Source: Cyanidioschyzon merolae (Eukaryota). Taken from it: a DNA stretch of 64,000 bases. The notes beneath the pieces are model-generated. The model was not told the origin of the DNA. It made no database searches and saw only the letters and a list, made by a program, of their open reading frames with translations. The stretch lies in the NCBI GenBank assembly GCA_000091205.1, contig AP006496.2; one strand, given 5' to 3'. A program made the position numbers and the translations under genes. Positions 7,104 to 64,000 of the stretch are shown piece by piece (the stretch's first letter is position 1; every line of letters starts with the position of its first letter).

Positions 7104-7910
7104 GTGCTCGTTTTTCTTCGAATTGCAATGCGCTTTCTTTGTCCAAATAAGCTCTCGTTGCAAATGCGCGATTGGACGGTACTATTACTGGTGTCGGTGA
7201 CGCTCACACTGCTCCACTACGGTGCCGTCGCGCCGGCTACCGCAGCTGCAGTTGACCTCCGCTTTCTGCCCGCTGGAGACTTGGAAATAGCTGCGGCAAA
7301 GGAGCTCCTTTTTCCAGTGGATCGCGTTTCTCTAAACATAACGAGTTTCGACTCTGCCTTGCTACAAGAGGTCAATAAAACCTGGGTGAACACCACGCGG
7401 CACTTGAGCGAGAGCGGGGGAGCGAACGCCAGCCACCCCATCGACCACGTTGCGCAGGGGTTGTGTTTCACGCGTATTCTTCAAGAGGCCGCCGATCGTG
7501 TCGTATTGGCCGTGGAAGCGCAGTGCACACCGGTAGACGTTCAGGACGGAAACTGCAGCGATGTGGTGCAGGGAGCTGCTGATCGAGCTCTCCTTGATCG
7601 CGGCTGGACAAGTCCGGCTATCGAAGTGCTGTCTGAGGCGTCGCAGCTCCCGTTCCATTTGGACTCTCTGAACTCGACTGGATCCGGTGGGGTTGGTCCT
7701 GGCGACTACGACATTCTGATTGGCATCGCCAAGCTAGTTGCTGAGCGCATCAAACCAGAAGTAGAGCGCGCGGCCGCGCTGTTTCATAGCGATGGCCTGG
7801 CAGGCATCAGCAGCGCGCTGCAGCCAGTTGCAGGGAACTCTTCCGCAACGAACCTTTACATAATCATATTCTTTGGGAAGGATAGCACCCAGCACTGCCT
7901 TGGAACCTAA
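7104..7910 (+). CDS. hypothetical secreted or N-glycosylated protein (268 aa) with a signal-anchor-like hydrophobic segment
   Basis: It is a long ORF with a WTVLLLVSVTLTLL hydrophobic stretch near the N-terminus and at least seven N-x-S/T sequons. No family was recognised. Confidence 0.35.
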   Translation: MLVFLRIAMRFLCPNKLSLQMRDWTVLLLVSVTLTLLHYGAVAPATAAAVDLRFLPAGDLEIAAAKELLFPVDRVSLNITSFDSALLQEVNKTWVNTTRHLSESGGANASHPIDHVAQGLCFTRILQEAADRVVLAVEAQCTPVDVQDGNCSDVVQGAADRALLDRGWTSPAIEVLSEASQLPFHLDSLNSTGSGGVGPGDYDILIGIAKLVAERIKPEVERAAALFHSDGLAGISSALQPVAGNSSATNLYIIIFFGKDSTQHCLGT

Positions 7911-44498: not shown

Positions 44499-44568
44499 AC
44501 CAACAACGCCGTTCTACGTCGACCGACGTCAGTGTACAGTAGTGGCGAGAAACTCGCCCTGGCCAAGA

Positions 44569-47843: not shown

Positions 47844-50800
47844 ATGTTGAATTGCAGTAGAGAGCTTGGAAGAGCGACTTTAGCGACTGTTTGGCAGAAG
47901 GGGCAAGTTTCGGGCTTGCGGGCGTGGTACGCACAGGTTACAGCTTGTGATGCTGCCGGGGGTTACCGCCTAGGAGGCAAACGTTTGATCACGCAGCTCA
48001 TCTCACCTGCCGATAGTGTGGGATCACGGAAAATGGGGGTACCGACGGCGGTTTCGGTGCAGAGACTGTCCTCGTCATGCGCTGGAGAAACGGGCACTGC
48101 TGCGAGCGAACGCAGCGCGAGCGTGCCGCGCTTCGATCCGTCTGTGCACATCGTGACGCGTCGGACTCGCGTCCGAGAGCAGCTGGACGCAATTTTCAAA
48201 CCACGAGCTGTGGCAGTGATTGGTGCGACGGAAAAGCCCGGCTCCGTCGGTCGCAATATTTTCCAGAACCTGCTCTCGCCTTTCGGCGGTGCCGTGTACC
48301 CTGTGAATCCCAAACGAAGCCACATTTTGGGTATACGCGCATATCCGAATGTGTCGTCAATTCCGGAGCCAATAGATCTCGCTGTTATCACGACACCCGC
48401 GAGAACAGTGCCGTCGATTATGCACGAACTCGCTGACAACCGCGTTCCAGGCTGTGTGATTATTTCGGCGGGTTTCGCCGAGGCGCAGGTTGGTGGCGAG
48501 GGTCGAAAGCTTCTCGATGAGACACTCGCAGAGGCTCGGCGTGGAGGCACGCGTATCATCGGACCAAACTGTTTGGGTATCCTCAATATCTCGACAGGGA
48601 TGAATGCGTCGTTTGGTGCACGGGCAGAGTACGTTAAAGGCGATGTGGCTCTGCTGAGTCAGAGCGGAGCTTTGGTCTGCTCGCTTCTCGACTGGGCACT
48701 GAAGGAACGATTTGGTTTCAGCAAAGTTGCATCGTTAGGAACGATGTGCGACGTCGACTGGGCGGATATGATTCGGTATATCGGTGAGGATACGCATTCG
48801 AGGTCGATTGTTGCCTACGTTGAATCGATTGGGAATGTTCGCGCCTTCATCTCGGCTGCTCGAGAGGTTGCAACCACGAAGCCAATTGTGGTGATTAAAG
48901 CTGGACGCACGCCCGCTGCGGCTGCGGCAGCAGCGTCACACACCGGCAACCTTACTGGGTCGGACGAAGTGATTGGGGAGGTCTTGCGCCGTGCCGGAGT
49001 GCTGCGCGTGGATCGAATCGATGATCTCTTCCTCACTGCAAGAGTGCTGGCGCAGCAACCTCGACCTCGCGGAAAAAATCTTACGATCATAACGAATGCG
49101 GGAGGGCCGGGGATCCTAGCGGCAGATGAGTTGGTTTCGGGTGGTGGTGCGCTCACCGAGCTCTCATCAGAAACCATGGATGCACTGGACAAGGTGCTCC
49201 CGGCAGCCTGGTCGCATGCGAACCCGGTTGATATCATTGGAGATGCGACACCAGAAACGTATGCGAAGGCGCTTGAGATCTGCTCCAAGGATGTGAACAC
49301 GGACGGCACGCTTGTGATTCTGACGCCGCAGGTCATGACCGATGCTACTGCAACCGCAGATATTCTGGTACGCGCGGCAGCCACAGCGCGTGCCGAGGAC
49401 AAACCAGTGCTTGCGAGCTGGATGGGGGGCATTGATGTTTTAGCGGGCCAGGAAATTCTGAAACGCAACGAGATCCCCAACTTCGCGTTCGCGGACGTGG
49501 CTGTTCGCATTTGGAACTATCTTCATCGTTACAATTCGATTCTCGAGAGCCTCTACGAGGTACCAGAGGGCCCCTCAACCCGTGTTGCAGGGATGCGCCA
49601 GATTAAGCGTTCTGCAGAAGAAATGCTCGAGCAAGCACGCCAAGCAGGGCGAATCGTGCTGAACGAGTACGAGAGCAAGAGACTTCTCAGCATGTACGAA
49701 ATTCCAGTTTTGGAGGCGAAGCTAGCGCATTCGGAGGATGAAGCCGTTGAGATCGCGAAACGTATTGGTTTTCCGGTCGTAGCCAAGCTGTTGAGCCACA
49801 CGATCACACACAAGACCGACGTTGGTGGCGTGAAGGTGAATCTCCACACACCGGATCAAGTTGTCGAAGCCTTCCATTCGATTCGCGAGAGCGTCACCAA
49901 GCTCCGCGGCGCAGAACACTTCCAGGGCGTTATTCTGGAACGAATGATCGATCTTCGCCCCGGAGGATACGAGGTCTTGTTGGGGAGTACACTCGACCCG
50001 CAAGCAGGACCTATTGTGGCGTTTGGCACCGGTGGAACCCTTGTGGAAGTCTACAGGGACGTCAGTCTCGGCATACCGCCGCTGAACTCTGCGCTCGCGC
50101 GTCAAATGATGGAACGAACTCGCATTTACAATGCACTGAAGGGCGTGCGGGGCCATGACCCGGCTGATCTTGAGCAGCTGCAAACAGTGGTATCTCGCTT
50201 CTCTCGAATGGTGTGCGAACAACGCCTTATCAAAGAGTGTGATATCAATCCGCTGTTTGTGACTCCACGCGGTATTGTGGCAATTGATGCCCGTGTCGTC
50301 TTGCATGACCCGCACGTGTCACTGGATACTGTACCGCAGCCGGCCATCCGCCCGTACCCCTCGGAGTATGTCAGCCCCTGGAGCGGCGACAGTATGGGGA
50401 ACCTCCCGGTGGTGATTCGGCCCATCCATCCCTCGGATACACCAAAGCTTTTAGAGTTCTGGGACGCTCTGTCAACAACAGGCACTGGTTATTTAGTGCC
50501 ACAAGTCGTTGCCGCAGCGCCCACTCGTGACGTGAACCTACGGGATCGATGGCTGCGCAATCGTTTGCTTCGCATAGCCTTTTGCGACTTTAACTCGGAA
50601 ATGGTGATCATCGCCGAGGCCCGTGATGCCGAAGGGAGCGCTGCAATCCACGCTCTAGCCCAGCTGCGTTTGGAGCCGGAGCCGGACCCCGGTCATTTTG
50701 CGATTAACGTCTTGGACACGGACCGTGGGCACGGCCTCGGGACAGAGATGCTCCGCCGACTCATGGATATTGCGCGTCGCGAGGGCTTGACTCGAATATG

Positions 50801-50924
50801 GAGCGAGATCGCACCGGAGAATCGGGCTATGCAGCGCATTTGTGAGAAACTCGGTTTCCAGCTGGGACCATTACCAGACCAGGAGAATGGCAATATTCTC
50901 GCCGAGTACGTTTTGAGCGCGTGA
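47844..50924 (+). CDS. Pat-like fusion of an NDP-forming acyl-CoA synthetase (CoA-binding, CoA-ligase and ATP-grasp domains) with a C-terminal GNAT acetyltransferase, the architecture of bacterial protein lysine acetyltransferase Pat/YfiQ. The first 100 aa or so may be a leader or not translated
   Basis: IFKPRAVAVIGATEKPGSVGRNIFQNLL.PFGG.VYPVNPK is the CoA-binding Rossmann domain of succinyl-CoA-synthetase type. Next come ...GPNCLGI.N...G.NASF and the ATP-grasp block YESKRLLSMYEIPV...FPVVAKL.S..I.HKTDVGGVKVNL. The C-terminal GNAT has RGHGLGTEMLRRLMDIARREGLTRIWSEIAPENRAMQRICEKLGF. Confidence 0.85.
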   Translation: MLNCSRELGRATLATVWQKGQVSGLRAWYAQVTACDAAGGYRLGGKRLITQLISPADSVGSRKMGVPTAVSVQRLSSSCAGETGTAASERSASVPRFDPSVHIVTRRTRVREQLDAIFKPRAVAVIGATEKPGSVGRNIFQNLLSPFGGAVYPVNPKRSHILGIRAYPNVSSIPEPIDLAVITTPARTVPSIMHELADNRVPGCVIISAGFAEAQVGGEGRKLLDETLAEARRGGTRIIGPNCLGILNISTGMNASFGARAEYVKGDVALLSQSGALVCSLLDWALKERFGFSKVASLGTMCDVDWADMIRYIGEDTHSRSIVAYVESIGNVRAFISAAREVATTKPIVVIKAGRTPAAAAAAASHTGNLTGSDEVIGEVLRRAGVLRVDRIDDLFLTARVLAQQPRPRGKNLTIITNAGGPGILAADELVSGGGALTELSSETMDALDKVLPAAWSHANPVDIIGDATPETYAKALEICSKDVNTDGTLVILTPQVMTDATATADILVRAAATARAEDKPVLASWMGGIDVLAGQEILKRNEIPNFAFADVAVRIWNYLHRYNSILESLYEVPEGPSTRVAGMRQIKRSAEEMLEQARQAGRIVLNEYESKRLLSMYEIPVLEAKLAHSEDEAVEIAKRIGFPVVAKLLSHTITHKTDVGGVKVNLHTPDQVVEAFHSIRESVTKLRGAEHFQGVILERMIDLRPGGYEVLLGSTLDPQAGPIVAFGTGGTLVEVYRDVSLGIPPLNSALARQMMERTRIYNALKGVRGHDPADLEQLQTVVSRFSRMVCEQRLIKECDINPLFVTPRGIVAIDARVVLHDPHVSLDTVPQPAIRPYPSEYVSPWSGDSMGNLPVVIRPIHPSDTPKLLEFWDALSTTGTGYLVPQVVAAAPTRDVNLRDRWLRNRLLRIAFCDFNSEMVIIAEARDAEGSAAIHALAQLRLEPEPDPGHFAINVLDTDRGHGLGTEMLRRLMDIARREGLTRIWSEIAPENRAMQRICEKLGFQLGPLPDQENGNILAEYVLSA

Positions 50925-51338: not shown

Positions 51339-54090
51339 CAACTGACGTGCAGACGCCTCCCCGTCTTTCTCGACCGGCCACCTACTACTGACTTCAACTT
51401 TTTTTCATATAGTTCCACTTTGAGAGGTTGTCCAACAAAATTCTAGCCTGTCAACTGTGGAGGTCTTTTCTCCATCACCGCACATCTCCGTATAATGATT
51501 GCGGCGTTAAAGTCTCGGTTCACGAAATCCATACGTTTCTTGCCATCATTCGTTGTACTTACTAATGCAAGTAGTCCACGAACTTTCGCCATCTTTTTCA
51601 TTTGCTCCTCCGTCAGCGGTCCGTACTTTTGTATATCCTCGGGGCTCCGCTGGCGCTATTCCATCTCCACAATCTGAAGTGCGCACCCCAGTTCATGGTG
51701 TGTATGGGACGTTCGGAAGTCATCTACGGGTATTGTAACAAAACGCCTTGCGCACTCCTTGTACGTTCTTGTCGTTGGAGCTGGCGTAGTCCCTTTTTGG
51801 GTCTTCAAGCGCCCCTGTCCGTACGCTACTACGAGCCTCTGACTTTCATCCTCCTTCAAGGCGCTCAACTCATTGAAAAAATTCGCGAATGCACGCTGCT
51901 TCCCACAGTACAAGTTCATTCGCAGACGAGCCCACCGGGGCTTGGTATACTCCTCCCACAGCGCATCCCAATGGACAACACGAACTTCCATGAATTTCCG
52001 GAAAGCTTCAAAGTCCGCTCCACGGATCGTCACCTCGCTCAAAGCTTCCATTTGATCCTTCATTCCTGAATTCCAATTCCCGATTTTCTTCCTTGCATTC
52101 ATGATTCCCGATTCTCGATTGTATCTCGCTCTCGAGAACCTCAAATGACGCAGGTTTTACCTACGTAAGTTTCATTCAGTGCCATCTTCCCGACGCTTGG
52201 GTACAGCGATGGTTATGATATTCGTGTTCCAGGGACTAAGGCCGAAGACAAAGTTGTTTTCGTTGGGATTATACGTCCCATGGCCCGTCTTCTTGTTTTC
52301 GTGCTTCGGCAAGTGAGATAATGAAGACGGGATAGGACGACCTGCCTTCATCCGCTGATAGTGTACACATATGTATACTCCATCGTTATCGATTGTCCCA
52401 GTGAATACCTTTTTTTGCCCGGTTTGGGACGCTTGGAATCGAAGATATTCTGCCAGTAGGTGTCCCGGTCTTCGCTGATGATCTCTTTGTTGGTTACATC
52501 GAGCTCTGGACAGATCTCCTTCATGAAGTTGTAAAGGACGATGGAGTAGATATTCACAAAATGTGACTTGAACTCGCATAACCGAACACCAATGAAGCGC
52601 AACCGTAGAAGCGATTGAATATCATCTCTCCAACTCTTCATTTTTTCCATACTCAGCTCCATTTCGGCCATGCGTCCGAAATTGGTCCAAAAACATGAAG
52701 TAGGGGAGAATAAGGGATAACATCTCTCTTCGTTTTTTCTCATATCTGACAATTCTCCTCTTGGGTTGACAAGCCCCAAGACCGAAGGATGCTTTTGAAT
52801 AGTCGCGCGGATAACAGAAGCCCTATTTTTTCTACAGCATGATGTACCCTTGTCGATGAATTCAATCTCCTGTTCATGCTGGCGATCGTTTTTCATACCA
52901 TCGATGATTGCGCATATCCCTTCACGAAACAGGCCCGGATACAGCGCAAGGACGGCGCGTACCATGAAACAATCGAGGTATACGATCTTATTTTTCCTCA
53001 CATTCGTGAGGCACCTCATTGCCCTGTATTCGTATGTATCTGCGCCACCCTTGTATTTGGCACCGTAAAAGCGCGAGTTTGCGTAATTTTTCGGAGAGCA
53101 TGGACTGTCCCATTTCTCCACGAAGTTTCCCAGGTGCCAAACATCAACTGGCTGACAAAGGTCGTGTTGAAAATTTCTCCCTCTCCAAATGCACCAGTCC
53201 CAAAAGACGCGTTACAAACATAGCTTGAGCACGAATCGCCATCGTTTCTGAAGGCCTCTCGCAACTTTTCCTTGTACGGATCCTTACCATGCCCAAGAAG
53301 ACACGATTTCATCACCATTTCATCGCTCTGTCGTCTTTCTTGCAGCATTTGACGTAGGGCCTCCCTTTTTTGCTTCTTTGCGTTATGCTATTCCTCTACA
53401 CTCGGCACAGTCCTTTGTTCTCTTCCGGCGGCCGGCAATACCGGTCATCCAAAAACCTTCTACCTCCAGTTCCATAAGTTTTCTATTTTATAAAAAACAT
53501 TATGGACGCTTCTAGTTTAAACGGCGGCAAAGCAGTAAAATACTTTAACTTGAATATTGAAACACGATTGAAGTAATACCGACACTTTGCTACCATTTGA
53601 TCGCAAACACAACTGGCCCCGATACAGCCGCAGGTCAAAAAGTAGCCATTATCGCATTTCTCTTCACCGGCGAGACAGGTTGCGTGTTGTGACGGCCACA
53701 TATCGTGGTTCGCGTACGGGCCACACAATACAAAAAAAGAACGGAGTGTGGCCGATTACTAGCAACGAGGTAACGGTTCCTTTCCACATCTGTTGCAGAC
53801 CTTGAAAAGAGGAACCTTTTGCTCATGGTCTAACGATTACCTTAGAGGTGGAGGGTCCCACAAACCGGAAGACGCTACCTGCTTTTGCTCCGCGTGACTC
53901 TTAGTGGTGGAGAATGTGACGCACCTGAGTATCTCGTCCGAATCGCGTATGGTTCTGGGACTAGGAGCGGGTGTGCTGCATTTGGGCGTCACCTTGGTCG
54001 CGGTGGACTCCTAGTATACCGCTTCGCGCAACCGCAGGCTGATGGTCTGCATGTACAGCTTGGGGGCTCCCAGAAATATAAATAGCCCTG
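51339..54090 (-). mobile_element. copy 3 of the repeat family (putative Fanzor/TnpB-like element), decayed
   Basis: Its termini and ORF are homologous to copies 1 and 2. The 5' box is tgaaacacgattga at 53551-53564. The flank 53600-54090 matches 46900-47400. Confidence 0.6.
51656..53477 (-). pseudogene. decayed ORF of repeat copy 3 (pieces 53016..53348, 52348..53121, 52172..52579, 51656..52144). The RuvC-I-like box is mutated (LSPWNTN)
   Basis: The N-terminus MELEVEGFW...RRKRTKD...* carries a stop. [26 protein letters not shown] is the RuvC-I-like box. The C-terminal piece is TTRTYKECARRFVTIPVDDFRTSHTHHELGC. Confidence 0.5.
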
Positions 54091-54827
54091 ATTCCGTTTT
54101 GCGTGAACCAAGCCTCTTCTGACGCGCTCAGTGGTATACCAAGGCTGTTCTGTTTCCGTAGCGCATCCGCACCAGCGCCTTAATCGCGACGGTGGGTGCA
54201 TACGACTGGCACTCGACGCACGAGAGAACGTATGAAACGGCCAGTGCATTCGAGAACTGGTAAAAGCGATGGAACGTACAGATATTGCTCAGCATGATGG
54301 ACGCTTTCCCGAAAGGCAATATCGATCCGGCAAGCTGGGATACATGGTCAGTGGAAATGTTCTGTCGAACTAAAGAAAGCATATCGCGGGAGGGAATTCC
54401 TTAATGGCTCTGGTGTTCGAAGCATCGCCTTGGCAGTGCGTATGCGCTGATATCATCCTGCCGGAGGGAATTCCCTTATACTTCCGCTGGGCCGAGCCCT
54501 TGCGTTCAGCGGCGAAGTTTATCCACGATCGTCGTGATCTCCGAGCGGAACGTTGCGCAGCGCTTAGCGCGAAGTACTTGCGAGGTTACTGGTCGGAAAA
54601 CTGGGAGCTTTACCTAGTTTCTGAAAAGGACATAGACCACTTGTGCTAGTTCCACTCAAAGCTTGAAATTCTACAGGAGGCTTAGGTAAGAATCTGTGCA
54701 ATTGACGGACGATCACTCGTGCAGCTACACAACAGAGGTTTTTGACTGGATACGCACGCTTACGCGAACCTTCCTAGGTGGTGACGCACTCGGCAGCTTT
54801 GCACCGGAGAAAACCTAATCCAAGAAA

Positions 54828-56039
54828 ATGCAAGCCCTTTTCGTTTCTGTCCCGTTGTACCAGGAAAGATACATTGTTCGCGCGCGCGCTGCAACTCGAG
54901 CACCGTTCCCGCTGCGTACGCCTCGTAACGGGTGCTTCGCAGCTGGACATTGTCACCACTGCCAGCATCCGCTTCCTTTGGTGGTGCAGCGTTTGCCTGT
55001 AGCGCGCCGGCACCACGCGCTGCATCTTCGTATGGGCCCGAAACAGTCGCAGATCGCTGTGATCACTGGCGCGTCCTCTGGGGTCGGTCTGTATGCAGCT
55101 CGCGCTCTGGTCAACAAGGGCAACTGGCACATCGTCATGGCATGTCGTGACATTGATCGGGCGGAGCGCGCAGCAGACAGCGTGAACCTCCCAAAGGACG
55201 CCTATACAGTGCTGCATTGTGATCTGGCTGATTTCGCCTCTGTACTAAAGTTTGTGAGAGAGCTGTCAAGTGTGGCGCGCGTCGATCACCTGGATGCCCT
55301 GATCTGCAATGCCGCAATCTGGCATCCGCGGGACAAGAAACCGCGTTTCACGGTGGACGGCATCGAGGAAACCATGCAGGTATGCCATCTGAGCCATTTG
55401 CTTCTATGTCGGGAGCTGTTGCCGAAGCTGAAAATATCGCGCGGGCGCATTGTGTTTCTGACGACTCAGACACACTCGCCGAATTCGTTGCCGGGAAAGA
55501 TCCCCCCGCAGGCTCGTCTCGGTGATTTGTCTGGTCTAGCCGCGGGGCTTGGTCCGCAGACGACGGGCATGGTGGACAGTGGCCCGTTTGAGCCCACAAA
55601 AGCCTACAAAGACGCCAAAGCCGCGAACGTGTTGACAATGAAGGCGCTCAGTGATCGATACGGCCGCGACGGGGTGACCTCTGTGGCAATCTTCCCGGGA
55701 TGTGTCGCCGACAGCAACCTCTTCCGCGAAAAGCGTGGCTGGTTCCGGCACGTATTCTTCCCGATTCTTCAGAAGTATATCACTCGGCAATACGTTCCGA
55801 ATGATGAGGCCGGCCGCCGCGTAGCCGAAGTGGCGACCCAGGGACAGTTCTCTGACTCGGGCTCGTATTATCAGTGGCGTGGCAAATATACTGAAGGTCG
55901 AGAGAAGACGAAACCGCAGGTTATTGAACCAACTTACGAAATCGACAAGGCAGATCAGCTTTACGAACTGAGTCTTGATCTGATCGACCAGGCGTTACGG
56001 AGGCGAGGCCTCAAGTCGACTATCTTGGCCCCTGTCTAA
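54828..56039 (+). CDS. POR: light-dependent NADPH:protochlorophyllide oxidoreductase (SDR family), with an N-terminal plastid transit peptide
   Basis: AVITGASSGVGLYAARALVNKGNWHIVMACRDIDRAERAA matches POR [37 protein letters not shown]. The catalytic YKDAKAANVLTM matches YKDSKVCNMLTM. The region between those two blocks, CNAA.......P.FT.DG.E....NHLGHFLL...LL..L, aligns with POR. The POR-specific loop and the C-terminal YW.W block are both present. Confidence 0.9.
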   Translation: MQALFVSVPLYQERYIVRARAATRAPFPLRTPRNGCFAAGHCHHCQHPLPLVVQRLPVARRHHALHLRMGPKQSQIAVITGASSGVGLYAARALVNKGNWHIVMACRDIDRAERAADSVNLPKDAYTVLHCDLADFASVLKFVRELSSVARVDHLDALICNAAIWHPRDKKPRFTVDGIEETMQVCHLSHLLLCRELLPKLKISRGRIVFLTTQTHSPNSLPGKIPPQARLGDLSGLAAGLGPQTTGMVDSGPFEPTKAYKDAKAANVLTMKALSDRYGRDGVTSVAIFPGCVADSNLFREKRGWFRHVFFPILQKYITRQYVPNDEAGRRVAEVATQGQFSDSGSYYQWRGKYTEGREKTKPQVIEPTYEIDKADQLYELSLDLIDQALRRRGLKSTILAPV

Positions 56040-56376
56040 GGTTTGTTAGTGATGAAAATGAGATGCGGCTTCGGAGCGCAGACCGCTGCTTCAAGAACAG
56101 ATGTAAGAGCAACAGCGTAACGATGAGACGACACCCCACTGTCACAATCGGATAGCGGACGGATGGGTGGGCACTCCTCCTGATGTGGAGAACCAAAATT
56201 GCTTCGCAAGTCATAAAGCGTACTGCAGTAGTGATTAATATAGCTATAGCTATGACCTACTTCGCATCGAATGCGCCAGAGACTGCCAACTGCGGTCGTT
56301 CAAGAGGGCAGAGCGCGTTTATTTGGGTAATTTTGTGCGGTGAAGAATACGGCAATAGAAGCGCACTTGCAGACTT

Positions 56377-57802
56377 TTGAACGCTCTGTGGGTATTCGAT
56401 ATCAAACTGGGTCAACGGGCATGGATTAATGGAAGCTCGGTAGTGAATACTCTAGCAGTATATGGGGCATTGAGCGAGTCAGGCCCGAATAGTGTACCAA
56501 GTACTCGCTATGGATCAGCTTTCTGGGACACTAGTAGGACTGATCCGATCGTATTTGTTGGAAATGGATACATAAACACGAGCGGCAGTGACTTTCTCAA
56601 TGATGTCTTTGCATTAAAGAAAACATTCCCTACTCCAACACCGAAACCTACGCGGACACCCACCCCATTGCTCCAATGAGCTCTGCGGATCTCCAGGACA
56701 GTGCATCAACCAGGACGCATGCGAGCAAGTCGGGTGCTGCTTTAACTCCCAGACAAACGCGTGCATCCTGAAGAGCGTCTCAGCGGCGTGCAGCGCTGTT
56801 GAAGTGACGCAACGCGTCCCCTGCGGCTGGAACTATATCTACCCCGACGAGTGCACTGCGATACCGGGATGCTGCTGGCAGCCAACGGCAAACGGCATCC
56901 TGGCACCCTGGTGCTACTACGACATCAACCATGCACCGCAGGCTTCCGTAGCGCTGCAGGAGATGCAGGCACCGGTTCCCGTCTGCGCATCACCGGGAGC
57001 GCAGCGCCAGCCATGCGGCGACGTGGGTATCAACCAGTTTACCTACTATGCCCAGGGCTCCTGCTACGACTCGCAGGCGCAGAACCAGTGGGTGCAGAAC
57101 GGCAAGCAGCAGAGCGACTTTGCGTCGAACCCGTACTGCTTCCAGCCTGAGAAGACGTGCGCGGTGGGCGAGTTTGAGCGCCAGCCGTGAAATAACGTGG
57201 TGAATCAGAACCAGCAGCGGAGCAACAATAACATCAACAGTAGCCAGTTTGTGCGTCTGCTGAACACGGTCCTTTACGGAGAGCAGCACGGGACGCAGCG
57301 CACGAGCTACGCGTCGCAGCAGTGTCTGGAGGCTGGTTGCTGCCTGGGGATCGGCAACGAGTGCTTCCAGCCGGTTACTGAGTATGTTTGCCAGACCTAT
57401 GGGTATGCGTCGAACTCGCTGAGCGGCACGACCGGCAAAGTGTCGAACTCGACGTATATTCCATGCGGCTCCGAGTGCTGCAACGCCGAGACGCAGAACT
57501 GCACGTAAAACCCGTTCAGTAACAACAATAACCAGCAACTGCAGCAACAGCAGGTGCTGTTGCCGTCATTCTGTGTGTGCAAGGACCCTACAGTTCAGTC
57601 CGGGACGTACCTGATCGCTTCGGATAACCTTGTGCACAAGGTGCGTTGCTGCCGCTCTGGCGAGGAGTGCATCAACAACAAGTGTATGATGATTAGTCCT
57701 ACGCCGTCTCCGAGTGCCGTTATTGCGACTGCAACTGCGTCTGCAAGTGCGTTGGTATTGGTGTCGACCTCGACGCGTGCCTCAGCAAGTACTTCAGTAT
57801 GA
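56377..57802 (+). pseudogene. decayed or truncated paralog of the downstream Kelch gene. It comprises a last Kelch blade plus a Thr/Pro linker (56377-56679), then, after a frame change, a single frame 56618-57802 encoding trefoil(P)-like Cys-rich modules separated by N/Q-rich linkers and interrupted by in-frame TGA (57188) and TAA (57506)
   Basis: SAFWDTSRTDPIVFVGNGYINTSGSDFLNDVFALKKTFPTPTPKPTRTPTP parallels AVLWNTDQNDPVLFGGQGSSGSYNDLFTLYIATSTPMPTATPTPT at 59700-59870. The frame 56618.. encodes LCGSPGQCINQDACEQVGCCFNSQTNAC... and VPCGWNYIYPDECTAIPGCCWQPTANGILAPWCYY (pattern C-x9-C-x5-CC-x12-C). ORFs 56804..57190, 57197..57508 and 57554..57802 are all in the same frame. Confidence 0.5.
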
Positions 57803-58429
57803 ACCACTGCGTAGACGGCAGCTATCTGTACGGCCCCGCGCGCGCGAACCCAGAACTAAATATATGTTTCAGTTATTGATATACTCATTCCATGAGGAAC
57901 GTGGGTGTACAATATAGTTCGCACGTGCATGCAAGCAACCTTTCAGTCCGGGTTGGGGGCCCATAATTTAATGTTGAGGGTATCTGGACACCAAACATAC
58001 CCCTAGACGGGATGTCAACAAATATGCAGATGGCCTGCAGAAAGAGGGAGTTTTTCGTACTGCGTCATAGCGGGTCGGGTCCGAATGTGCGACGGGCATG
58101 CCATTAGCCTTTTTGGATGTTTGGACTCTGCATGGGTATCTGAAATACGACTGCGGCGTAGACTGCTACTTTGTATTGCCATTACGAGAGCGCCTTCATG
58201 AAACTCGGTAGAAGACGCTGCAAAATATCTTTGTCCGTTTATTATAGAAATGTCCTGTTGTGGGAGCGCCGTGCGCAGATCTGCGTCATTCAGACGGCGG
58301 TGCTTGACCCGCTCCCGTACTGCTTACCTCAGAATACTTCGTGGAGGCTCGTAGGGGTACGGACGGAGACAACAGTGACAACAGTACCAGCAGCTGGAGG
58401 CTCCCCTATCCCAATAGATAGTAAGCAAC

Positions 58430-60676
58430 TTGTTTCTCTGGGAGGCGTTTACTTTTCACTGGTGCAGAACCCCTTTCTTATCCTATATGCGAAAAAGGTA
58501 TTTTTCTATTGTGAGACTCCTGGTTATAGTATTGGTTGTGTCGGGAACACACACAGTTCGTGGAGTTTTGTCCGCAGAGAATACTGTATTATGGACCTGG
58601 ATCGGTGGTAGTAGCTCTAACGGCAGTTCAGGTAGCTACGGTGTTCAGGGTGTGCCGAACACCAGCAACGTGCCTCCGGCGCGGTTCGGTGCGGCCTTCT
58701 GGAACGGCGCTGACGGGGTGCTCTGGTTGTTTGGAGGTGGCAGCGACTTGAGAGACGTCTTCGGTGATCTCTGGAACTACAATCTAAGCACGTTCTCTTG
58801 GACCTGGGTTGGAGGCTCTTCATCCCTCAACTCTGGAGGGGTATACGGCTCCCTCGGAGTTCCCAACAAGAGCAACTATCCGCCTTCGAGGACGGAATCC
58901 GCTGCTTGGAGTGACAGCAACGGAAACCTTTGGTTATATGGAGGCTGGAATTTGAACTTGGGCTATAGTGATATGTGGATGTATAATGTATCGTCGGGCG
59001 AATGGACATGGGTGCAGGGATCCAACGAGACCAATGTTCCCCCGACATATGGTCCTCTTGGGAAGTCGTCTTCAAGCAACACGCCTGGCGGTCGTTACCA
59101 ACCCGCGACCTGGGTTGGCCTAGATGGCCAGTTTTATCTCTTTGGTGGATTTTATCCTTTTGGTCATTTTTACGGTGACCTGTGGCAGTACAACACAGTG
59201 ACCAACGAATGGAGCTGGATAGGTGGCACTCAACAGCAGACTCCCTCTGGAAGCTATGGTACGTTTCGCCAGGCATCGCCGAACAATTATCCCGCTGGAC
59301 GTGCCGGAGCCACATCGTGGCGAGACCTTGATGGGAACTTTTGGCTCTTTGGAGGTTTCGGACAGATTGTCGGATCTAGCAATCTTCTCAATGATTTATG
59401 GCTGTACAATGTCAGCTCCAAAGAATGGACTTGGATGTCTGGAAATGACAGTGTTGGTTCGAATGGGTCGGTATACGGCGAGAAAGGAGTGCCGTCATCG
59501 AGCAACACTCCGGGGTACAGATCCGGTTCCTCTGGATTTGTAGACTCGTCAAACACTCTGTATCTCTTCGGTGGTAGTTCACCCGGTGTCTGCAACGACC
59601 TGTGGACGTTCAATATTACGAGTCTTGAATGGACTTGGGTAGACGGTGACGATACAACGAATGGAGCCTATAGCTACGGCGAGGTTAACAAGACAAGCAA
59701 TACAACGCTTCCACCTCCGCGATACGGTGCAGTTCTTTGGAATACCGATCAAAACGACCCGGTCCTATTCGGAGGCCAAGGCAGCTCCGGTAGCTATAAC
59801 GACCTCTTCACATTATACATCGCAACATCGACGCCTATGCCGACCGCAACACCGACTCCGACGGCATCACCGACGCCCTCCGTTACTGCATCACCGTCGG
59901 CAACAACGAATGTGACGCAGACCGCTGTAGGCGAAGGTTCTGCGGTCTGCTTCCCCGCGGATGCCTCGGTGCTGATCGATGGTCTGGGCAACAGTCTGCT
60001 TATAAGCGAGCTTCGATCAGGTATGGCCGTGATCGGCGTCAATGGGCGTGGGCAACTGGTCGAAGACAGTGTACTAGGATGGTTGCATAACGAGCCCGGC
60101 GCTACTGCAGAGATTCTTGCGATCAAGACGCTTTCCGGAAAGCAGCTGCGTCTGACGAGACAGCATCTGGTATATCGAGTGATCGAACACTCTAGAGACT
60201 TTGATAGTATGACGACCGCTTTCTCGTGTATTTCACAGAAGCAGCAGCAGCAGCATCAGAAGCACGTAGGTCAGAGCCTTGAGCTGGGTACCTCCGCCGT
60301 TGTGGCAGTTTTCGCGGAAGATATCCGCGTTGGCGACGCTCTGCTGGACGTTGCTGCGCAGCTGCCGGACCCCGTTGTGGCAATCGAGACTTTAGTAACG
60401 CACAATGGTCTCTATGCGCCGTTGACTCGCTCAGGGCGCCTTGCGGTCGACGGTGTTCTCGTGAGCTGCTACGGGACGTACGCATCGCATGCCGTGGCAC
60501 ATGCAGTGTTGTGGCCTGCGCGGGTCGATGCTCTGCGCAAGGTATGGGGATCAGGGCTCGGCACAGAGGGTATTGTGGGTATCATGCCGTATGCAGAAAG
60601 GCTCTATCACATTTGGACGAGTGCAGCACGTGTTTTAACGGAGGCTCGCGTAAGTGTTGTAGTTGCAGCCTGCTGA
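58430..60676 (+). CDS. secreted Kelch-repeat beta-propeller protein with a C-terminal Hedgehog/intein-type Hint (Hog) autoprocessing domain. The likely start is Met-20 at 58487, with a signal peptide
   Basis: Six Kelch-like blades repeat the pattern YG..G.P..SN.P..R...A.W.D..GNLWLFGG......NDLW.YN....EWTW. A TPMPTATPTPTASPTPS linker follows. The Hint N-terminus EGSAVCFPADASVLIDGLG matches Hedgehog GCFPG.S.V. The C-terminal LAVDGVLVSCYGTYASHAVAHAVLWPAR is Hog-like. Confidence 0.8.
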   Translation: MFLWEAFTFHWCRTPFLSYMRKRYFSIVRLLVIVLVVSGTHTVRGVLSAENTVLWTWIGGSSSNGSSGSYGVQGVPNTSNVPPARFGAAFWNGADGVLWLFGGGSDLRDVFGDLWNYNLSTFSWTWVGGSSSLNSGGVYGSLGVPNKSNYPPSRTESAAWSDSNGNLWLYGGWNLNLGYSDMWMYNVSSGEWTWVQGSNETNVPPTYGPLGKSSSSNTPGGRYQPATWVGLDGQFYLFGGFYPFGHFYGDLWQYNTVTNEWSWIGGTQQQTPSGSYGTFRQASPNNYPAGRAGATSWRDLDGNFWLFGGFGQIVGSSNLLNDLWLYNVSSKEWTWMSGNDSVGSNGSVYGEKGVPSSSNTPGYRSGSSGFVDSSNTLYLFGGSSPGVCNDLWTFNITSLEWTWVDGDDTTNGAYSYGEVNKTSNTTLPPPRYGAVLWNTDQNDPVLFGGQGSSGSYNDLFTLYIATSTPMPTATPTPTASPTPSVTASPSATTNVTQTAVGEGSAVCFPADASVLIDGLGNSLLISELRSGMAVIGVNGRGQLVEDSVLGWLHNEPGATAEILAIKTLSGKQLRLTRQHLVYRVIEHSRDFDSMTTAFSCISQKQQQQHQKHVGQSLELGTSAVVAVFAEDIRVGDALLDVAAQLPDPVVAIETLVTHNGLYAPLTRSGRLAVDGVLVSCYGTYASHAVAHAVLWPARVDALRKVWGSGLGTEGIVGIMPYAERLYHIWTSAARVLTEARVSVVVAAC

Positions 60677-60899
60677 GCTGGCAATCTGCCCTGCAGGACA
60701 GGGGCGAACAGTACCGATGGTACCACTCTAGGTGCTGCTTTTTCTGCCATAGGATAGTGTTTGAGCAATGATGGTAAAACGCGCTCTATCGCGAAAAAGC
60801 ATCCCGCAGCATATTGCCAGGCATTTTTGATATGTGATGGTACCAGATCCACTTATATAAACGAGCGGAGTTGCAAAGAAGTATTCGTGTGTGTGTGTA

Positions 60900-63800
60900 A
60901 TCGAGGCACGCCGCGAAATACAGTTTTATGTACCAAGATGTACTGTAGCGCTAATACTTGCGGAGAGCAATAGCAGCAGCTGCCGGTTACATGAGACTGA
61001 GTGAGCAGAGGTTTGCATGCATCTATGCTTCGAAATAGTATTGTGGCTGGGTAGTTGTGGAACGCTCCGCTCGGACATATATTCAGATATGAAAATTGGC
61101 TCTTAGCACTGGGGCGTGGTTCTTGGAACGGTGCAGTGAGAGCGATAAGGATTTCACAGTTGGGAAGATACGAGAAAAATCTATGAAAATTTTTTCAAGA
61201 AAGAAGAGCTGTATTGAATGCAATATGATCAAGATTCGCGACTGAATGTGGAGAAATAGAATTGGTTATAGTCGTACAATTCTACAGCTCCTGCAGTGGA
61301 AAGCATGAAAACGGAAAGTTATAAGGCCAAGGAGTAAATATCTCACGGTTATTCCGTTGATGCACTGCAGATGAGAAGGACTACCAGGAAAAATATCGGC
61401 AGTGAAATGAACCTGGCTGTCAGTAGACTTCACTAGAAAGAACGTAACCACAGCCTGATCCCCATAGTTATAAGGCAGAGTGTACTGTGCCAGAGGCTCT
61501 GCACACTGCTCCAAACTTTGTGTAAGAAGATGTTTATATTTATGTTCTGGTGCCCTGGAGGGTGCACAGTATGTATATACTTCATAATTAATGTAAAGCA
61601 AGTTCCCGTGCTGATGAGCTCAGTCGTGCCAGTCCTGCTGATCGCACAAGGCAGCCTACTGGTAGCAACAAACCGGTGCTTATGGAACGATCGACCTGAT
61701 TGGGCCTGTCGCCACGACTCCGACCGACGAGGCGTACCGCAGAGCGAATCCTGCATACAGTGGAGCTAGTCAGAAAGTCCATGATGTAAGTCTAGATGAA
61801 GCTCAAGTGGGCGCGCGACATTCAACTGGTACCTTGGAGTTTGCTACAGTCTCGTCCTGACAAGCTCCGAGTCTGCCGCGGTACACGCGTTTGGAGTTGT
61901 TCGAGTTCTGGCTCTAGTGCGTTTATCGGCAAAAACCGCTACATGTCCGGAGTGAGCTACAGGTGAAGCCAGTCTGTGCTTTGTGGATACGGTGCAGCCA
62001 GCATGTGCCAGGAGCTGCATCCGGTAAACTCTGGGTCATAAGGAATGAAGGCGAGACGCCAAGCAGCAAGCTTTGAAAAATAAACAAGAAGCAAGGACGC
62101 TAAGGTCAGAGTTTGGGTGCTCGCGATCTTTGCCTCCAACCAAGCATCCCTGAAGCAGCCGCAAGCAGACCTGTATGGGCGAAAAGCTCATTGTCATATC
62201 GGGGCCAGCTGCTCTTCGATGCCGAGGCGGCGCGGTGGCTGATTCCGCCTTCCAGGAACGGTAGCGCGGAACATTGCTATTGCTACTCTAGAGATGTGTA
62301 GGGGCAATAACTAGATAGATTAGTGAACAGTGGTGCGTGAATTCAGTGTACGCGTACAAGAAAGAGCATAGGGAACAATGTTGTGCGTGAATCCAACGAA
62401 TCAGAATACAGACCAGAAAAAGAGGCCTCGATCATGGTCTGTTTCTAGTGCACATGTAGTTCCCTGCATGCTGCCCTGCGACAATGTGTTCATTCCTGTA
62501 AACAATCTATATTGATGGTAAACAATGTTGGATCTCAGCTTGTATGAAAATATGCCTGGTACCGCAAGCACTGCCAAAGCGATAGACTGAGGTGCATTGC
62601 TAGACCGTATTGATGGGCATGGGGGAGGGTAATCAGCTGTACTGGATCTTCTCAACTTCACTGAAAACGGTATCCGAGTCGGAATGCTGAATACGGGTCG
62701 GCAGCAGAAAAACAGTTATAACGTACGCTTAGCGCCTGTGGATGCTTATGGTAAGGACGCGAAGCTAGACGTACATTCAAATCCTGAATAGACCCAACAA
62801 ATTATATCCATGTACTTTGTCTGAACAACCACGGCACGCGCATCGATACGTAGGGTCGCATTCCCGTATACGGCGATTCCTCCGGAGGCCTGCCCTGTCG
62901 ACGTGCGACGCGCAGCTGCTGTTCGCAGTGGCGCCTATTCCGGTGTGCTGCGTGCTGCATAGCGACCGCGCAAAGTGATTACGAGCGCCTCCTACACAAT
63001 GATCGGTAGGCCGAAAAGGAGATTGGAGCTCCTAATAGAAGTAACGTGCCCACCGCTACTGTATTGCTGCCTGAGACCCAAGGGCCGGGTCGTCTTTTTT
63101 TTCCAACATTGCTCTCGGATCATCCATGAATCGGATCCACACGCAGGCAACAACAGGTCCCGGACCTACAAGCTGTCGACGAAGAAACCGCACCAGAGTC
63201 GCCTGGAAGCTAGCCACTAGCAAATTTGAGCTTAGTTACGGCTAGTGCTAGGAACGCTGACAGGGAAGAGATAGAGTTGCAACTGAGAAGATGTTCCAAA
63301 AAAGATATGTAGCTTTGTGCTTGCAGCTGAGTAGGGTGACTTACAGCAAGTTCATAACAATGAAAGAAATACGAACAATGATGACTACTGTGGATATTCG
63401 GAAAGCTCTGAAACGCGGTGGATATGAATGTATGGACGAAGGGCTTGCAAACAACCATCAAAATCGTGTGAAGAAAAACGATGAGGATAGCAGAGTTACT
63501 AAGCGGAGCAAACAACGCACACAGCCATTGGGCTGGTCTGAAGTCGCAGATAATTGAAAGCTCAACAATACCAAGCCATGTGCAGATAAAAGGCCATTCA
63601 TTAGGTACGATGGGAACACAATTCGACAAGAATATAAGCAGAAATATATCGAAAATAACATGAAAAGAGCACTTTCTTTGTTCAGTTAAGATATTTGTGT
63701 AACAATGGAGACAACCTAGCACCGAAAAAGCAGCATTTAAGTACTGTGAGATGTTGAGAGAAGAAAACGGAGACAAAAAATGTTGAAGAACGACACACAC

Positions 63801-64000
63801 GAAACCAACACAAGCGAGCGCGCGATTCAGACCACGCGCGAAGGCCGGGGCCCAAAACATAGGAAACGACGAGGCGGTCAAGCTAAAATGCATCGATACT
63901 ACTGCGCGTACTGGAGTATCCAGGTGGCCACACACAGTCCAATGATGGAAAAGATTCCCCTCGGATCAATCGCTAGAGACATTAATACTGGAATGGGGGG
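60900..64000. other. AT-richer tail of the window with no confident gene. Its long ORFs are Phe/Leu/Ser-rich compositional artefacts
   Basis: There is a visible drop in GC relative to the 1-60 kb region. ORF 63210..63935(-) is low-complexity (F/L/S/C/I). Confidence 0.4.

What the first reader, a model, noticed from the sequence alone, without database searches (positions are those of the whole stretch)
58430..60676. Kelch beta-propeller fused to a Hedgehog-type Hint (Hog) domain
The protein has a signal peptide, six Kelch-like blades and a Thr/Pro-rich probable O-glycosylated stalk. It then has a Hint module opening with the canonical cysteine (AVCFPADASVLIDG), which implies autoproteolytic release of the Kelch domain. 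Hint domains outside metazoan Hedgehog are sporadic Hog proteins, and a Kelch-Hog combination is uncommon. It suggests a self-cleaving secreted or cell-surface lectin-like protein
Basis: partly seen in the sequence, partly recalled or inferred. Interest (0 to 1): 0.6.

Follow-up and report, generated by a model that had tools for sequence, protein, structure and literature searches.

The report
Known red-algal Kelch–Hog subtelomeric gene

Summary
The ORF is real. From its ATG at 58487, its 729-aa product is identical to BAM81404.1/XP_005537440.1, 'similar to hedgehog protein', of Cyanidioschyzon merolae 10D. It has an N-terminal hydrophobic leader, a six-bladed Kelch propeller (AF2 pLDDT 94.6), a 41-residue Thr/Pro/Ser/Ala linker and a Hog domain (Pfam Hint 2e-30). 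The best fold matches of the Hog domain are Drosophila Hedgehog-C structures (TM 0.89). The catalytic set is present: Cys488, Thr557-x-x-His560 and Ser-Cys661-Tyr. His534 sits where Hedgehog has its Asp general base; His is the more common residue there among the nearest Hog domains. A Hedgehog-length helix-loop-helix tail follows. The gene ends 3.3 kb from a telomere repeat unit, inside the published 'PH' subtelomeric element. Kelch+Hint fusions with this linker, their copy numbers, subtelomeric duplication, H3K27me3 marking and mainly haploid expression have all been published (2007, 2017, 2023, 2026). Self-cleavage at Val487|Cys488 is well supported by sequence and fold but has never been shown. 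Whether a sterol is attached is open. 'Lectin-like' has no support. Novelty: already known. Interest is low.

The parts
58487..60676 (+). Complete single-exon CDS (729 aa plus stop) of the Kelch+Hog precursor. It is identical to C. merolae 10D BAM81404.1 / XP_005537440.1 / UniRef100_M1V9D2.
58487..58564 (+). Predicted signal peptide (res 1-26, MRKRYFSIVRLLVIVLVVSGTHTVRG). It is the only strongly hydrophobic segment of the protein.
   Evidence: Hydropathy scan. No dedicated signal-peptide predictor was available.
58565..59824 (+). Six-bladed Kelch beta-propeller (res 27-446) with 12 N-glycosylation sequons.
   Evidence: Pfam. Six W[ST]W repeats. AF2 model pLDDT 94.6 / pTM 0.93. Foldseek best matches are six-bladed Kelch domains (LZTR1, KLHDC2/3, ESP), TMt about 0.8.
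59825..59947 (+). Thr/Pro/Ser/Ala-rich linker ('stalk', res 447-487) that ends in ...GEGSAV, the predicted new C-terminus after cleavage.
   Evidence: Composition. The same linker class is described by Cho et al. 2023.
59948..60481 (+). Hint module (res 488-665). It includes a Gln-rich insertion (res ~576-599, window 60212-60283) that is modelled with low confidence.
   Evidence: Pfam PF01079. AF2 pLDDT 85.5. Foldseek 6tyy/1at0, TMt 0.89, rmsd 2.0 A.
59948..59950 (+). Cys488 (Hint Cys1), the predicted nucleophile for the N-to-S acyl shift. It is preceded by Val487, where Hedgehog has Gly.
   Evidence: Cys is present in 122 of the 122 representatives that cover this column.
60086..60088 (+). 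His534, at the position of the Hedgehog general base Asp303/D46.
   Evidence: Alignments. Among the 147 nearest Hog representatives this position is His in 82 and Asp in 57.
60155..60166 (+). TxxH motif (Thr557-Arg-Gln-His560).
   Evidence: His is present in 145 of 145.
60464..60472 (+). Ser660-Cys661-Tyr662, the SCY ('motif J') of Hog domains.
60482..60673 (+). SRR/ARR-like C-terminal tail (res 666-729), predicted as helix-loop-helix. Motif K (S-H-x-x-A-H-x4-P-x-R) is conserved. Motif L reads G-I-M-P-Y-A where Hedgehog has G-x-H-W-Y-A.
   Evidence: AF2 helices at model residues 190-213 and 223-250. Alignment to Ihh. Column counts.
54828..56039 (+). Short-chain dehydrogenase gene, the 'P' gene (NADPH:protochlorophyllide oxidoreductase) of the published subtelomeric PH element.
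   Evidence: Pfam adh_short. Nozaki 2007. Same gene order in metagenome contig L004.
56347..57802 (+). Decayed Kelch+trefoil relic. A last Kelch blade plus TP linker lies in one frame. Trefoil domains lie in another frame, with two in-frame stops.
63992..64000 (+). One AATGGGGGG unit, the C. merolae telomere repeat, exactly at the window's end. The gene's stop codon is 3.3 kb from it.
   Evidence: Repeat sequence from Nozaki 2007.

Best explanation
The gene is the chromosome-end ('PH element') copy of the Cyanidioschyzon merolae Kelch+Hog family. The contig length and the published list of PH ends suggest the right end of chromosome 14. The proposed mechanism has five steps. (1) The N-terminal leader takes the precursor into the ER (inferred). 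(2) The six-bladed Kelch propeller is N-glycosylated at up to 12 sequons, and the Thr/Pro/Ser linker is probably O-glycosylated (inferred). (3) The C-terminal Hog domain folds as a Hedgehog-type Hint module. Cys488 attacks the Val487 carbonyl to form a thioester, helped by Thr557/His560 and by His534 at the general-base position. This step is inferred from conserved residues and fold, and has not been assayed. (4) A nucleophile resolves the thioester. The nucleophile is most plausibly a membrane sterol positioned by the Hedgehog-like helix-loop-helix tail, or otherwise water. (5) This releases Kelch+stalk ending at Val487. If an adduct is added, the product is a lipid-anchored, mucin-stalked propeller on the surface of the wall-less haploid cell, analogous in layout to a GPI-anchored protein. 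The ligand of the propeller is unknown.
For: Exact identity to the annotated C. merolae protein. Kelch and Hint Pfam hits well above cutoffs. Confident AF2 models. The Hog model superposes best on Drosophila Hh-C 1AT0 and its D46H mutant 6TYY (TMt 0.89, rmsd 2.0 A), ahead of inteins and BIL domains. Cys1, TxxH and SCY are conserved in all Cyanidiales copies and in nearly all of the 147 nearest Hog representatives. BLASTP to coelacanth Indian hedgehog gives 28% identity over 220 aa, E 3e-16, and runs through the SRR with the same spacing. Motif K is conserved. The D303H swap is known to keep Drosophila Hh-C active (PMC9163320). dN/dS is below 1 in both domains among four close copies, so these are not dead genes. 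Hog genes are reported as expressed, mostly in haploid cells, with proteome support in Cyanidiococcus (PMC13353863). C. merolae has an oxidosqualene cyclase predicted to make cycloartenol, so sterols should be available (PMC2817430). The telomere-proximal position recurs in three independent loci.
Against: No biochemical test of cleavage exists for any red-algal Hog in the literature I could search. The residue before the Cys is Val, where Hedgehog has Gly. By general intein/Hedgehog knowledge a beta-branched -1 residue may slow thioester formation. The HWY motif of the Hedgehog sterol-recognition region reads MPY here, so sterol specificity is uncertain. The sterols of C. merolae had not been characterised in the source read. 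The subtelomeric copies carry H3K27me3 and are described as moderately repressed (PMC5405695). No evidence bears on what the Kelch propeller binds.
Confidence: 0.7

Rival explanations
1. The Hog domain cleaves but adds nothing. The thioester is hydrolysed, or resolved by a small non-lipid nucleophile. The glycosylated Kelch+stalk is then simply secreted as a soluble protein into the acidic medium or the extracellular matrix.
For: Motif L of the sterol-recognition region is altered (MPY for HWY). Buerglin 2008 calls the tails of non-Hedgehog Hog proteins 'adduct recognition regions' because the adduct is unknown. Kelch+trefoil paralogs carry the same Kelch and linker without any Hog, so the propeller can function without a Hog-added anchor.
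Against: The tail has Hedgehog length, a conserved motif K and a predicted helix-loop-helix. Keeping about 64 residues beyond the Hint core across Cyanidioschyzon and Cyanidiococcus would be hard to explain if only hydrolysis were needed.
Confidence: 0.22
2. The protein is not processed. Either the Hog domain is a catalytically dead C-terminal module, or this particular subtelomeric copy is a silenced, decaying duplicate of no consequence.
For: H3K27me3 marking and moderate repression of the subtelomeric 'hedgehog' loci. The neighbouring Kelch+trefoil gene in the same element is visibly decayed. dN/dS is fairly high at 0.4-0.8.
Against: The ORF is intact. Every catalytic residue is kept in all copies and across genera. 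dN/dS stays below 1 in the Hog domain. Expression of Hog genes is reported.
Confidence: 0.07
3. The C-terminal module is an intein or a bacterial intein-like (BIL) domain rather than a Hedgehog-type Hog.
For: There is a weak sub-threshold hit to TIGR01445 intein_Nterm (18.6 bits against a cutoff of 24.5). Inteins and BIL domains appear lower in the fold search.
Against: No C-extein follows the domain, because the protein ends after the tail. The C-terminal motif is SCY rather than the intein His-Asn. Hedgehog-C structures are clearly the best fold matches (TMt 0.89 against 0.46-0.81 for inteins and BIL domains). PF01079 scores 106 bits.
Confidence: 0.01

Closest known systems
Cyanidiales subtelomeric Kelch+Hint ('K+H' / 'K+Hog') genes (Nozaki et al. 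2007; Cho et al. 2023; Plant Cell 2026, PMC13353863)
   Same: This gene is one of them. Its product is identical to an annotated C. merolae 10D protein. It has the same Kelch, Thr/Pro/Ala linker and Hint layout, and the same telomere-proximal position next to the POR and trefoil genes. Paralogs are 85-90% identical in Kelch and 92-96% in Hog.
   Different: Nothing of substance differs. In this copy the trefoil neighbour is decayed.
Metazoan Hedgehog C-terminal autoprocessing domain (HhC = Hint + sterol-recognition region; PDB 1AT0, 6TYY)
   Same: The Hint fold (TMt 0.89), the Cys1-Phe2 start, TxxH, SCY, motif K, and the tail length and helix-loop-helix prediction are shared. Identity to Ihh is 28% across Hint and SRR.
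   Different: The cargo is a Kelch propeller and not the HhN signalling domain (no PF01085 hit). His replaces the Asp general base, as in the engineered D303H mutant. Val replaces Gly at position -1. MPY replaces HWY in motif L. There is a Gln-rich insertion of about 24-33 residues after the TxxH strand.
Non-Hedgehog Hog proteins of other eukaryotes (choanoflagellate Hoglet, nematode warthog/groundhog/quahog, Glomus GIN1, and Hogs of other red algae and mosses; Buerglin 2008)
   Same: A secreted precursor with a lineage-specific N-terminal cargo and a C-terminal Hog. His at the general-base position is common: 82 of the 147 nearest representatives.
   Different: None of the 147 nearest representatives carries Kelch. 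Their cargoes include HH_signal, AIG1 GTPase, trypsin, reprolysin, LDLa and WSC. The other red-algal and moss Hogs described by Buerglin have lost the motif-J cysteine, whereas the Cyanidiales copies keep it.
Bacterial secreted multi-Kelch proteins with a type IX secretion sorting tail (mostly Bacteroidota)
   Same: They have the same long (~70-aa) Kelch repeat with a WTW...GVYG...NxPGxR...LWLFGG...LNDLW consensus, and 35-44% identity over the propeller. They are the best non-Cyanidiales matches.
   Different: They usually have about twelve repeats and a Por_Secre_tail, and they have no Hint domain. Whether the algal propeller came from bacteria by gene transfer was not tested by phylogeny.
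Cyanidiales Kelch+trefoil ('K+T') proteins
   Same: They share the Kelch propeller and the Thr/Pro linker, and they lie in the same subtelomeric blocks. A decayed copy lies 0.6 kb upstream of this gene.
   Different: The C-terminal module is a set of trefoil (P-type) domains and not a self-cleaving Hog. They are reported as mainly expressed in diploid cells, whereas Hog genes are mainly haploid-expressed.

Membership tests
Hog proteins (Hedgehog-type Hint + SRR/ARR) | Significant match to the Hedgehog Hint module profile (PF01079) above the curated cutoff | tested here: met
   106.3 bits against a cutoff of 29.7, E 2.2e-30, profile 10-207 of 213
Hog proteins (Hedgehog-type Hint + SRR/ARR) | Nucleophilic Cys at the first Hint position (Cys-Phe, motif A) | tested here: met
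   Cys488-Phe-Pro. Cys is invariant in the 122 of 122 aligned representatives that cover the column
Hog proteins (Hedgehog-type Hint + SRR/ARR) | TxxH (motif B) | tested here: met
   Thr557-Arg-Gln-His560 aligns with TAAH of SHH and Ihh
Hog proteins (Hedgehog-type Hint + SRR/ARR) | General base at the Drosophila D303 (D46) position | tested here: inconclusive
   The residue is His534, not Asp. His occurs in 82 and Asp in 57 of the 147 nearest representatives. The D303H mutant of Drosophila Hh-C is active (PMC9163320). The function of this His in this protein has not been tested.
Hog proteins (Hedgehog-type Hint + SRR/ARR) | SCY(A) motif J with Cys (Drosophila C400 / C143) | tested here: met
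   Ser660-Cys661-Tyr662-Gly
Hog proteins (Hedgehog-type Hint + SRR/ARR) | C-terminal adduct/sterol recognition region with motifs K and L | tested here: inconclusive
   Motif K is conserved (S-H..A-H....P-R). Motif L is only partly conserved (G-I-M-P-Y-A against G-x-H-W-Y-A). AF2 predicts a helix-loop-helix.
Hog proteins (Hedgehog-type Hint + SRR/ARR) | Hint fold closest to Hedgehog-C | tested here: met
   Foldseek top hits are 6TYY and 1AT0, E 1e-11, TMt 0.89, rmsd 2.0 A
Hog proteins (Hedgehog-type Hint + SRR/ARR) | Autocatalytic cleavage, with or without adduct transfer | not testable with these tools
   This needs biochemistry. I found no published assay for red-algal Hogs.
Bona fide Hedgehog | N-terminal HhN signalling domain (PF01085) | tested here: not met
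   No HH_signal hit. The N-terminal part is Kelch. The database name 'similar to hedgehog protein' therefore applies to the C-terminal half only.
Inteins / BIL domains | A C-terminal splice junction (His-Asn plus a downstream extein nucleophile) and a C-extein | tested here: not met
   The protein ends after the tail, and SCY replaces the intein motif G. intein_Nterm scores below its cutoff. Inteins rank below Hedgehog-C in the fold search.
Six-bladed Kelch beta-propellers | Six Kelch repeats forming a closed propeller | tested here: met
   Six repeats. Kelch Pfam hits. AF2 pLDDT 94.6. Best fold matches are LZTR1, KLHDC2/3, ESP and KLHL2 Kelch domains.
Galactose oxidase / glyoxal oxidase (the name under which the Kelch part was 'identified' in Cho et al. 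2023) | Seven-bladed propeller with a Tyr-Cys cofactor and a Cu site completed by a further domain (from general knowledge of the enzyme) | tested here: not met
   There are six blades, a single Cys (C369) in the propeller, no extra domain, and no galactose oxidase structure among the top 50 fold matches. The Pfam label 'Galactose oxidase, central domain' is only the name of the Kelch_3 and Kelch_4 models.
Cyanidiales subtelomeric K/T/H gene family | Kelch + Thr/Pro/Ala linker + Hint, next to a telomere, in a duplicated block | tested here: met
   Architecture. A telomere unit lies at 63992-64000. The 8.4-kb block 54509-62864 is 92.5% identical to an environmental contig with the same gene order. 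The product matches the annotated C. merolae protein exactly.

The most novel reading that the evidence does not exclude
The Kelch+Hog genes encode sterol- or other lipid-esterified, mucin-stalked surface propellers. They would be a non-animal use of Hedgehog-style lipidation as a membrane anchor. The subtelomeric, H3K27me3-marked, fast-evolving family would then act as a variable surface coat or as a recognition/adhesion set of the wall-less haploid (gamete-like) cell. Variation would concentrate in the propeller loops. The Kelch module itself may have been acquired from bacteria.
Probability: 0.25. Interest if true: 0.6.

Novelty: already known. Interest (0 to 1): 0.15.

Why it matters
For discovery purposes it matters little. 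The gene is annotated, and its family, architecture, linker, copy number, chromosomal position, chromatin state and life-cycle expression are all in print. The biochemistry remains open. No Hog from an alga has been shown to cleave itself or to attach a lipid. This family keeps the full Hedgehog catalytic set plus a Hedgehog-length tail, in an organism that is genetically tractable. That makes it a convenient system for asking whether sterol-type protein lipidation predates animals, and what a naturally occurring His general base does to substrate choice.

Tried and rejected
1. Intein or BIL reading: rejected (no C-extein).
2. Galactose oxidase or NanM-type enzyme reading of the propeller: rejected or unsupported. 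It has six blades, one Cys, no PF24996 hit for this protein and only generic Kelch fold matches.
3. Introns: I considered them because GT...AG-like strings occur near the 3' end. This was dropped, because the continuous ORF from the ATG reproduces the database protein exactly.
4. Second Hog copy in the window: tblastn found none, only a Kelch-blade relic at 56374-56616.
5. The look-up of encoding contigs returned nothing for this protein or for its C. merolae paralog P0001, so I could not read the paralogous chromosome ends directly. Metagenome relatives and Cyanidiococcus were used in their place.
6. The afdb50 fold library was unavailable.
7. Positive selection on the propeller: whole-domain dN/dS is 0.5-0.8 in Kelch and 0.4-0.8 in Hog at very low divergence. 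This is neither evidence for positive selection nor a clear domain difference. Only the raw amino-acid variability is higher in Kelch loops.
8. Literature search for a cleavage assay of a red-algal Hog: none found.
9. Pfam on ORFs of the dispersed repeat and of the telomere-proximal 3 kb: no hits.
Full report
**Observation.** The + strand ORF 58430..60676 exists. The first ATG is at 58487. The 729-aa product from that ATG is found letter for letter in public databases as BAM81404.1 / XP_005537440.1 / UniRef100_M1V9D2, 'similar to hedgehog protein [Cyanidioschyzon merolae strain 10D]', on a contig of 852,727 bp. Pfam finds several Kelch models (best PF24681, 1.2e-36). It also finds the Hedgehog Hint module PF01079 (2.2e-30, 106 bits against a curated cutoff of 29.7, covering profile positions 10-207 of 213).

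**Anatomy.**
- Residues 1-26 (MRKRYFSIVRLLVIVLVVSGTHTVRG) hold the only strongly hydrophobic stretch of the protein. This fits a cleaved signal peptide. There is no transmembrane segment elsewhere.
- Residues 27-446 contain six repeats centred on W[ST]W at a 68-72 residue period, with 12 N-x-S/T sequons.
- An AF2 model of this part, built on 106 homologs, has pLDDT 94.6 and pTM 0.93.
- Its best solved-structure matches are six-bladed Kelch propellers (LZTR1, KLHDC3, KLHDC2, plant specifier proteins, KLHL2), TM about 0.7-0.8 on the target.
- Nothing in these matches points to a lectin or to an enzyme. The Pfam label 'galactose oxidase, central domain' is only the name of the Kelch_3 and Kelch_4 models. 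The propeller has six blades and a single cysteine.
- Residues 447-487 are a 41-residue linker with T12, P7, S6, A6.
- Residues 488-729 are the Hog domain.

**Hog domain tests.** phmmer against PDB sequences hits human Sonic hedgehog (2.5e-11) and Drosophila Hedgehog. BLASTP against coelacanth Indian hedgehog gives 28% identity over 220 residues, E 3e-16. That alignment runs from the Cys through the sterol-recognition region with matching spacing.

- Cys488-Phe-Pro at the start.
- Thr557-Arg-Gln-His560 (TxxH).
- Ser660-Cys661-Tyr662 (SCY, motif J of Buerglin 2008).
- The motif-K pattern S-H-x-x-A-H-x4-P-x-R.

Three positions differ from animal Hedgehog:
- The residue before the Cys is Val (Lys in one Cyanidiococcus copy), where Hedgehog has Gly.
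- The position of the general base Asp303/D46 is His534.
- The HWY of motif L reads MPY.

I aligned the 147 nearest Hog-domain representatives from a 1.84-billion-protein library. That search gave 2,022 hits at E<=0.001 and 209 at E<=1e-10. In those 147:
- The general-base position is His in 82 and Asp in 57.
- Gly at -1 is found in only 62 of about 117 that cover the column.
- His of TxxH is present in 145 of 145.
- Cys of SCY is present in 134 of 147.

So His at this position is a common natural state of Hog domains and not a defect. The engineered D303H mutant of Drosophila Hh-C keeps its structure and activity and accepts more sterols (review PMC9163320).

The AF2 model of residues 479-729, built on 148 sequences, has pLDDT 85.5 and pTM 0.81. 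It has a beta-rich core, a low-confidence Gln-rich loop (protein residues ~576-599) and a C-terminal helix-loop-helix. Foldseek ranks the D46H mutant 6TYY and wild-type 1AT0 first (E 1e-11, TM 0.89 on the target, rmsd 2.0 A). Inteins and BIL domains follow at TM 0.46-0.81. The protein has no C-extein, and the intein N-terminal model scores below its cutoff. It is therefore a Hedgehog-type Hog and not an intein. It has no HhN domain, so it is not a Hedgehog.

**Context.**
- The last nine bases of the window (63992-64000) are AATGGGGGG, the telomere repeat unit reported for C. merolae (Nozaki et al. 2007). The gene's stop is therefore 3.3 kb from the telomere.
- Upstream lies a short-chain dehydrogenase gene (54828-56039). 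This is the 'P' gene (NADPH:protochlorophyllide oxidoreductase) of the published 'PH' subtelomeric element, which is listed for chromosome ends 6L, 7R, 8L, 8R, 11L, 14R, 18R and 19R.
- The contig lengths of this protein and its paralogs (852,727; 536,163; 852,849; 1,253,087 bp) fit that list. The assignment to 14R rests on my memory of chromosome lengths and on orientation. It was not tested with a tool.
- Between P and the K+Hog gene lies a decayed Kelch+trefoil gene. It consists of a last Kelch blade and TP linker in one frame, then trefoil domains (PF00088, 2.9e-14) in another frame with two in-frame stops.
- An environmental contig (L004) is 92.5% identical to window 54509-62864 and has the same P - trefoil - K+Hog order. 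Its trefoil frame is open where the window has stops.
- A 50%-identical K+Hog on metagenome contig L002 is followed about 4 kb downstream by AATGGGGGG repeats.
- The Cyanidiococcus K+Hog P0066 is the last gene, 4.1 kb from the end of an 844-kb contig.

**What is already published.**
- Nozaki et al. 2007 (PMC1955436) mapped 'hedgehog' and 'trefoil factor' genes to the chromosome ends.
- Mikulski et al. 2017 (PMC5405695) showed that the Hog-domain genes are subtelomeric H3K27me3 targets.
- Cho et al. 2023 (PMC9812998) described the Kelch domain fused to a trefoil or a Hint domain through a Thr/Pro/Ala-rich linker. They counted 11 K+H copies in Cyanidioschyzon and three in Cyanidiococcus, and stated that the function cannot be assigned.
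- The 2026 Plant Cell paper (PMC13353863) reclassified them as non-Hedgehog Hog proteins, counted 17 Hog genes in C. merolae, and reported mostly haploid-phase expression.
- Buerglin 2008 (PMC2362128) established Hog proteins in red algae and many protists but did not treat Cyanidioschyzon or Kelch.

**What this check adds.**
1. The residue-level and fold-level check that the catalytic apparatus is intact. This includes the motif-J cysteine, which other red-algal and moss Hogs were reported to have lost.
2. The observation that the tail matches vertebrate Hedgehog in length, motif K and predicted helix-loop-helix, but not in the HWY motif.
3. Kelch was absent as cargo from 147 other Hog representatives. 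Their cargoes were HH_signal (14), AIG1 (9), trypsin, reprolysin, LDLa, WSC and others.
4. The nearest non-Cyanidiales relatives of the propeller are bacterial multi-Kelch proteins. Many of them carry a type IX secretion sorting tail.
5. Among eight close copies, variable columns are more frequent in Kelch (25%) than in Hog (15%). They cluster in the loop after the 'GG' of each blade. Whole-domain dN/dS among four copies with DNA is 0.48-0.77 for Kelch and 0.39-0.83 for Hog at dS 0.03-0.10. This is below 1 but too noisy to claim more.

**Mechanism.** The best-supported reading is a secreted precursor that cleaves itself between Val487 and Cys488 by the Hedgehog route. An N-to-S acyl shift forms a thioester, which a second nucleophile then resolves. 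This releases a heavily glycosylated Kelch propeller on a mucin-like stalk.
- Shown here: the domains, the residues, the fold and the genomic position.
- Inferred: ER entry, glycosylation, cleavage and the nature of the nucleophile.
- In favour of a sterol: the conserved Hedgehog-like tail, and the predicted sterol pathway of C. merolae (PMC2817430).
- Against a sterol: the altered motif L, and the lack of any assay.

My probabilities are about 0.75 for self-cleavage, about 0.4 for a lipid adduct, and overall 0.7 for the model as worded. The rivals are cleavage with hydrolysis only (0.22), no processing or a silent duplicate (0.07), and an intein/BIL domain (0.01).

**Verdict.** Novelty is 'already known' and interest is 0.15. 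The most novel reading still open is a Hedgehog-style lipid anchor on a variable, subtelomerically encoded surface propeller of the haploid cell. I give it a probability of about 0.25 and an interest of about 0.6 if true.

Noticed in passing
window 63992-64000: The window ends exactly on one AATGGGGGG unit, the C. merolae telomere repeat. The window therefore appears to run up to the start of a telomere, and the K+Hog gene is the last recognisable gene, 3.3 kb inside it.
   Followed up: yes
window 56347-57802 (+): A decayed Kelch+trefoil gene lies here. It is a 5'-truncated last Kelch blade plus TP linker, then a frameshift into two trefoil (P-type) domains, with in-frame stops ending at 57190 and at about 57509. 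The same frame is open in the 92.5%-identical environmental contig L004 (gene at L004:5473-6360).
   Followed up: partly
window ~22090-23880 (-), ~44520-47030 (+), ~51810-53380 (+); L004:1-2284: A dispersed repeat family (67-83% identity between copies) coincides with the low-GC, odd-skew blocks of the composition profile. One copy lies about 1 kb proximal to the edge of the subtelomeric PH block (54509). Its ORF fragments have no Pfam hit. One fragment contains a '...VDEFRTSYTHH...' stretch that reminded me of the RuvC motif of TnpB/Fanzor-type transposon proteins. That is an untested recollection.
   Followed up: partly
window 58565-59824; proteins P0004-P0120: The closest non-Cyanidiales relatives of the Kelch propeller (35-44% identity, with the same ~70-aa repeat consensus) are bacterial proteins with about twelve Kelch repeats. 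Many carry a Por_Secre_tail (type IX secretion). This suggests that the algal propeller could be of bacterial origin. No phylogeny was made.
   Followed up: partly
window 47844-50924 (+): A large ORF (1026 aa) fuses CoA-binding, succinyl-CoA-ligase-like and ATP-grasp domains with a C-terminal GNAT acetyltransferase domain. This is the layout of an ADP-forming acyl-CoA synthetase / protein acetyltransferase. It is unrelated to the finding.
   Followed up: no
L002:883-3171 and L002 end (7190-7222); L001:10001-12325: In an environmental relative (K+Hog P0006, 50% identical overall, 74% in Hog) and in Cyanidiococcus (P0066), the K+Hog gene is again the telomere-proximal gene, with its 3' end toward the chromosome end. 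L002 ends in AATGGGGGG repeats about 4 kb after the stop codon. L001 ends 4.1 kb after the stop codon.
   Followed up: yes
window 60665-60673 (last residues ...AAC) and homologs: All full-length Cyanidiales Hog tails end in a conserved ...(A/V)AAC with a C-terminal cysteine. This has no counterpart in the Hedgehog sequences aligned. Its meaning is unknown.
   Followed up: no
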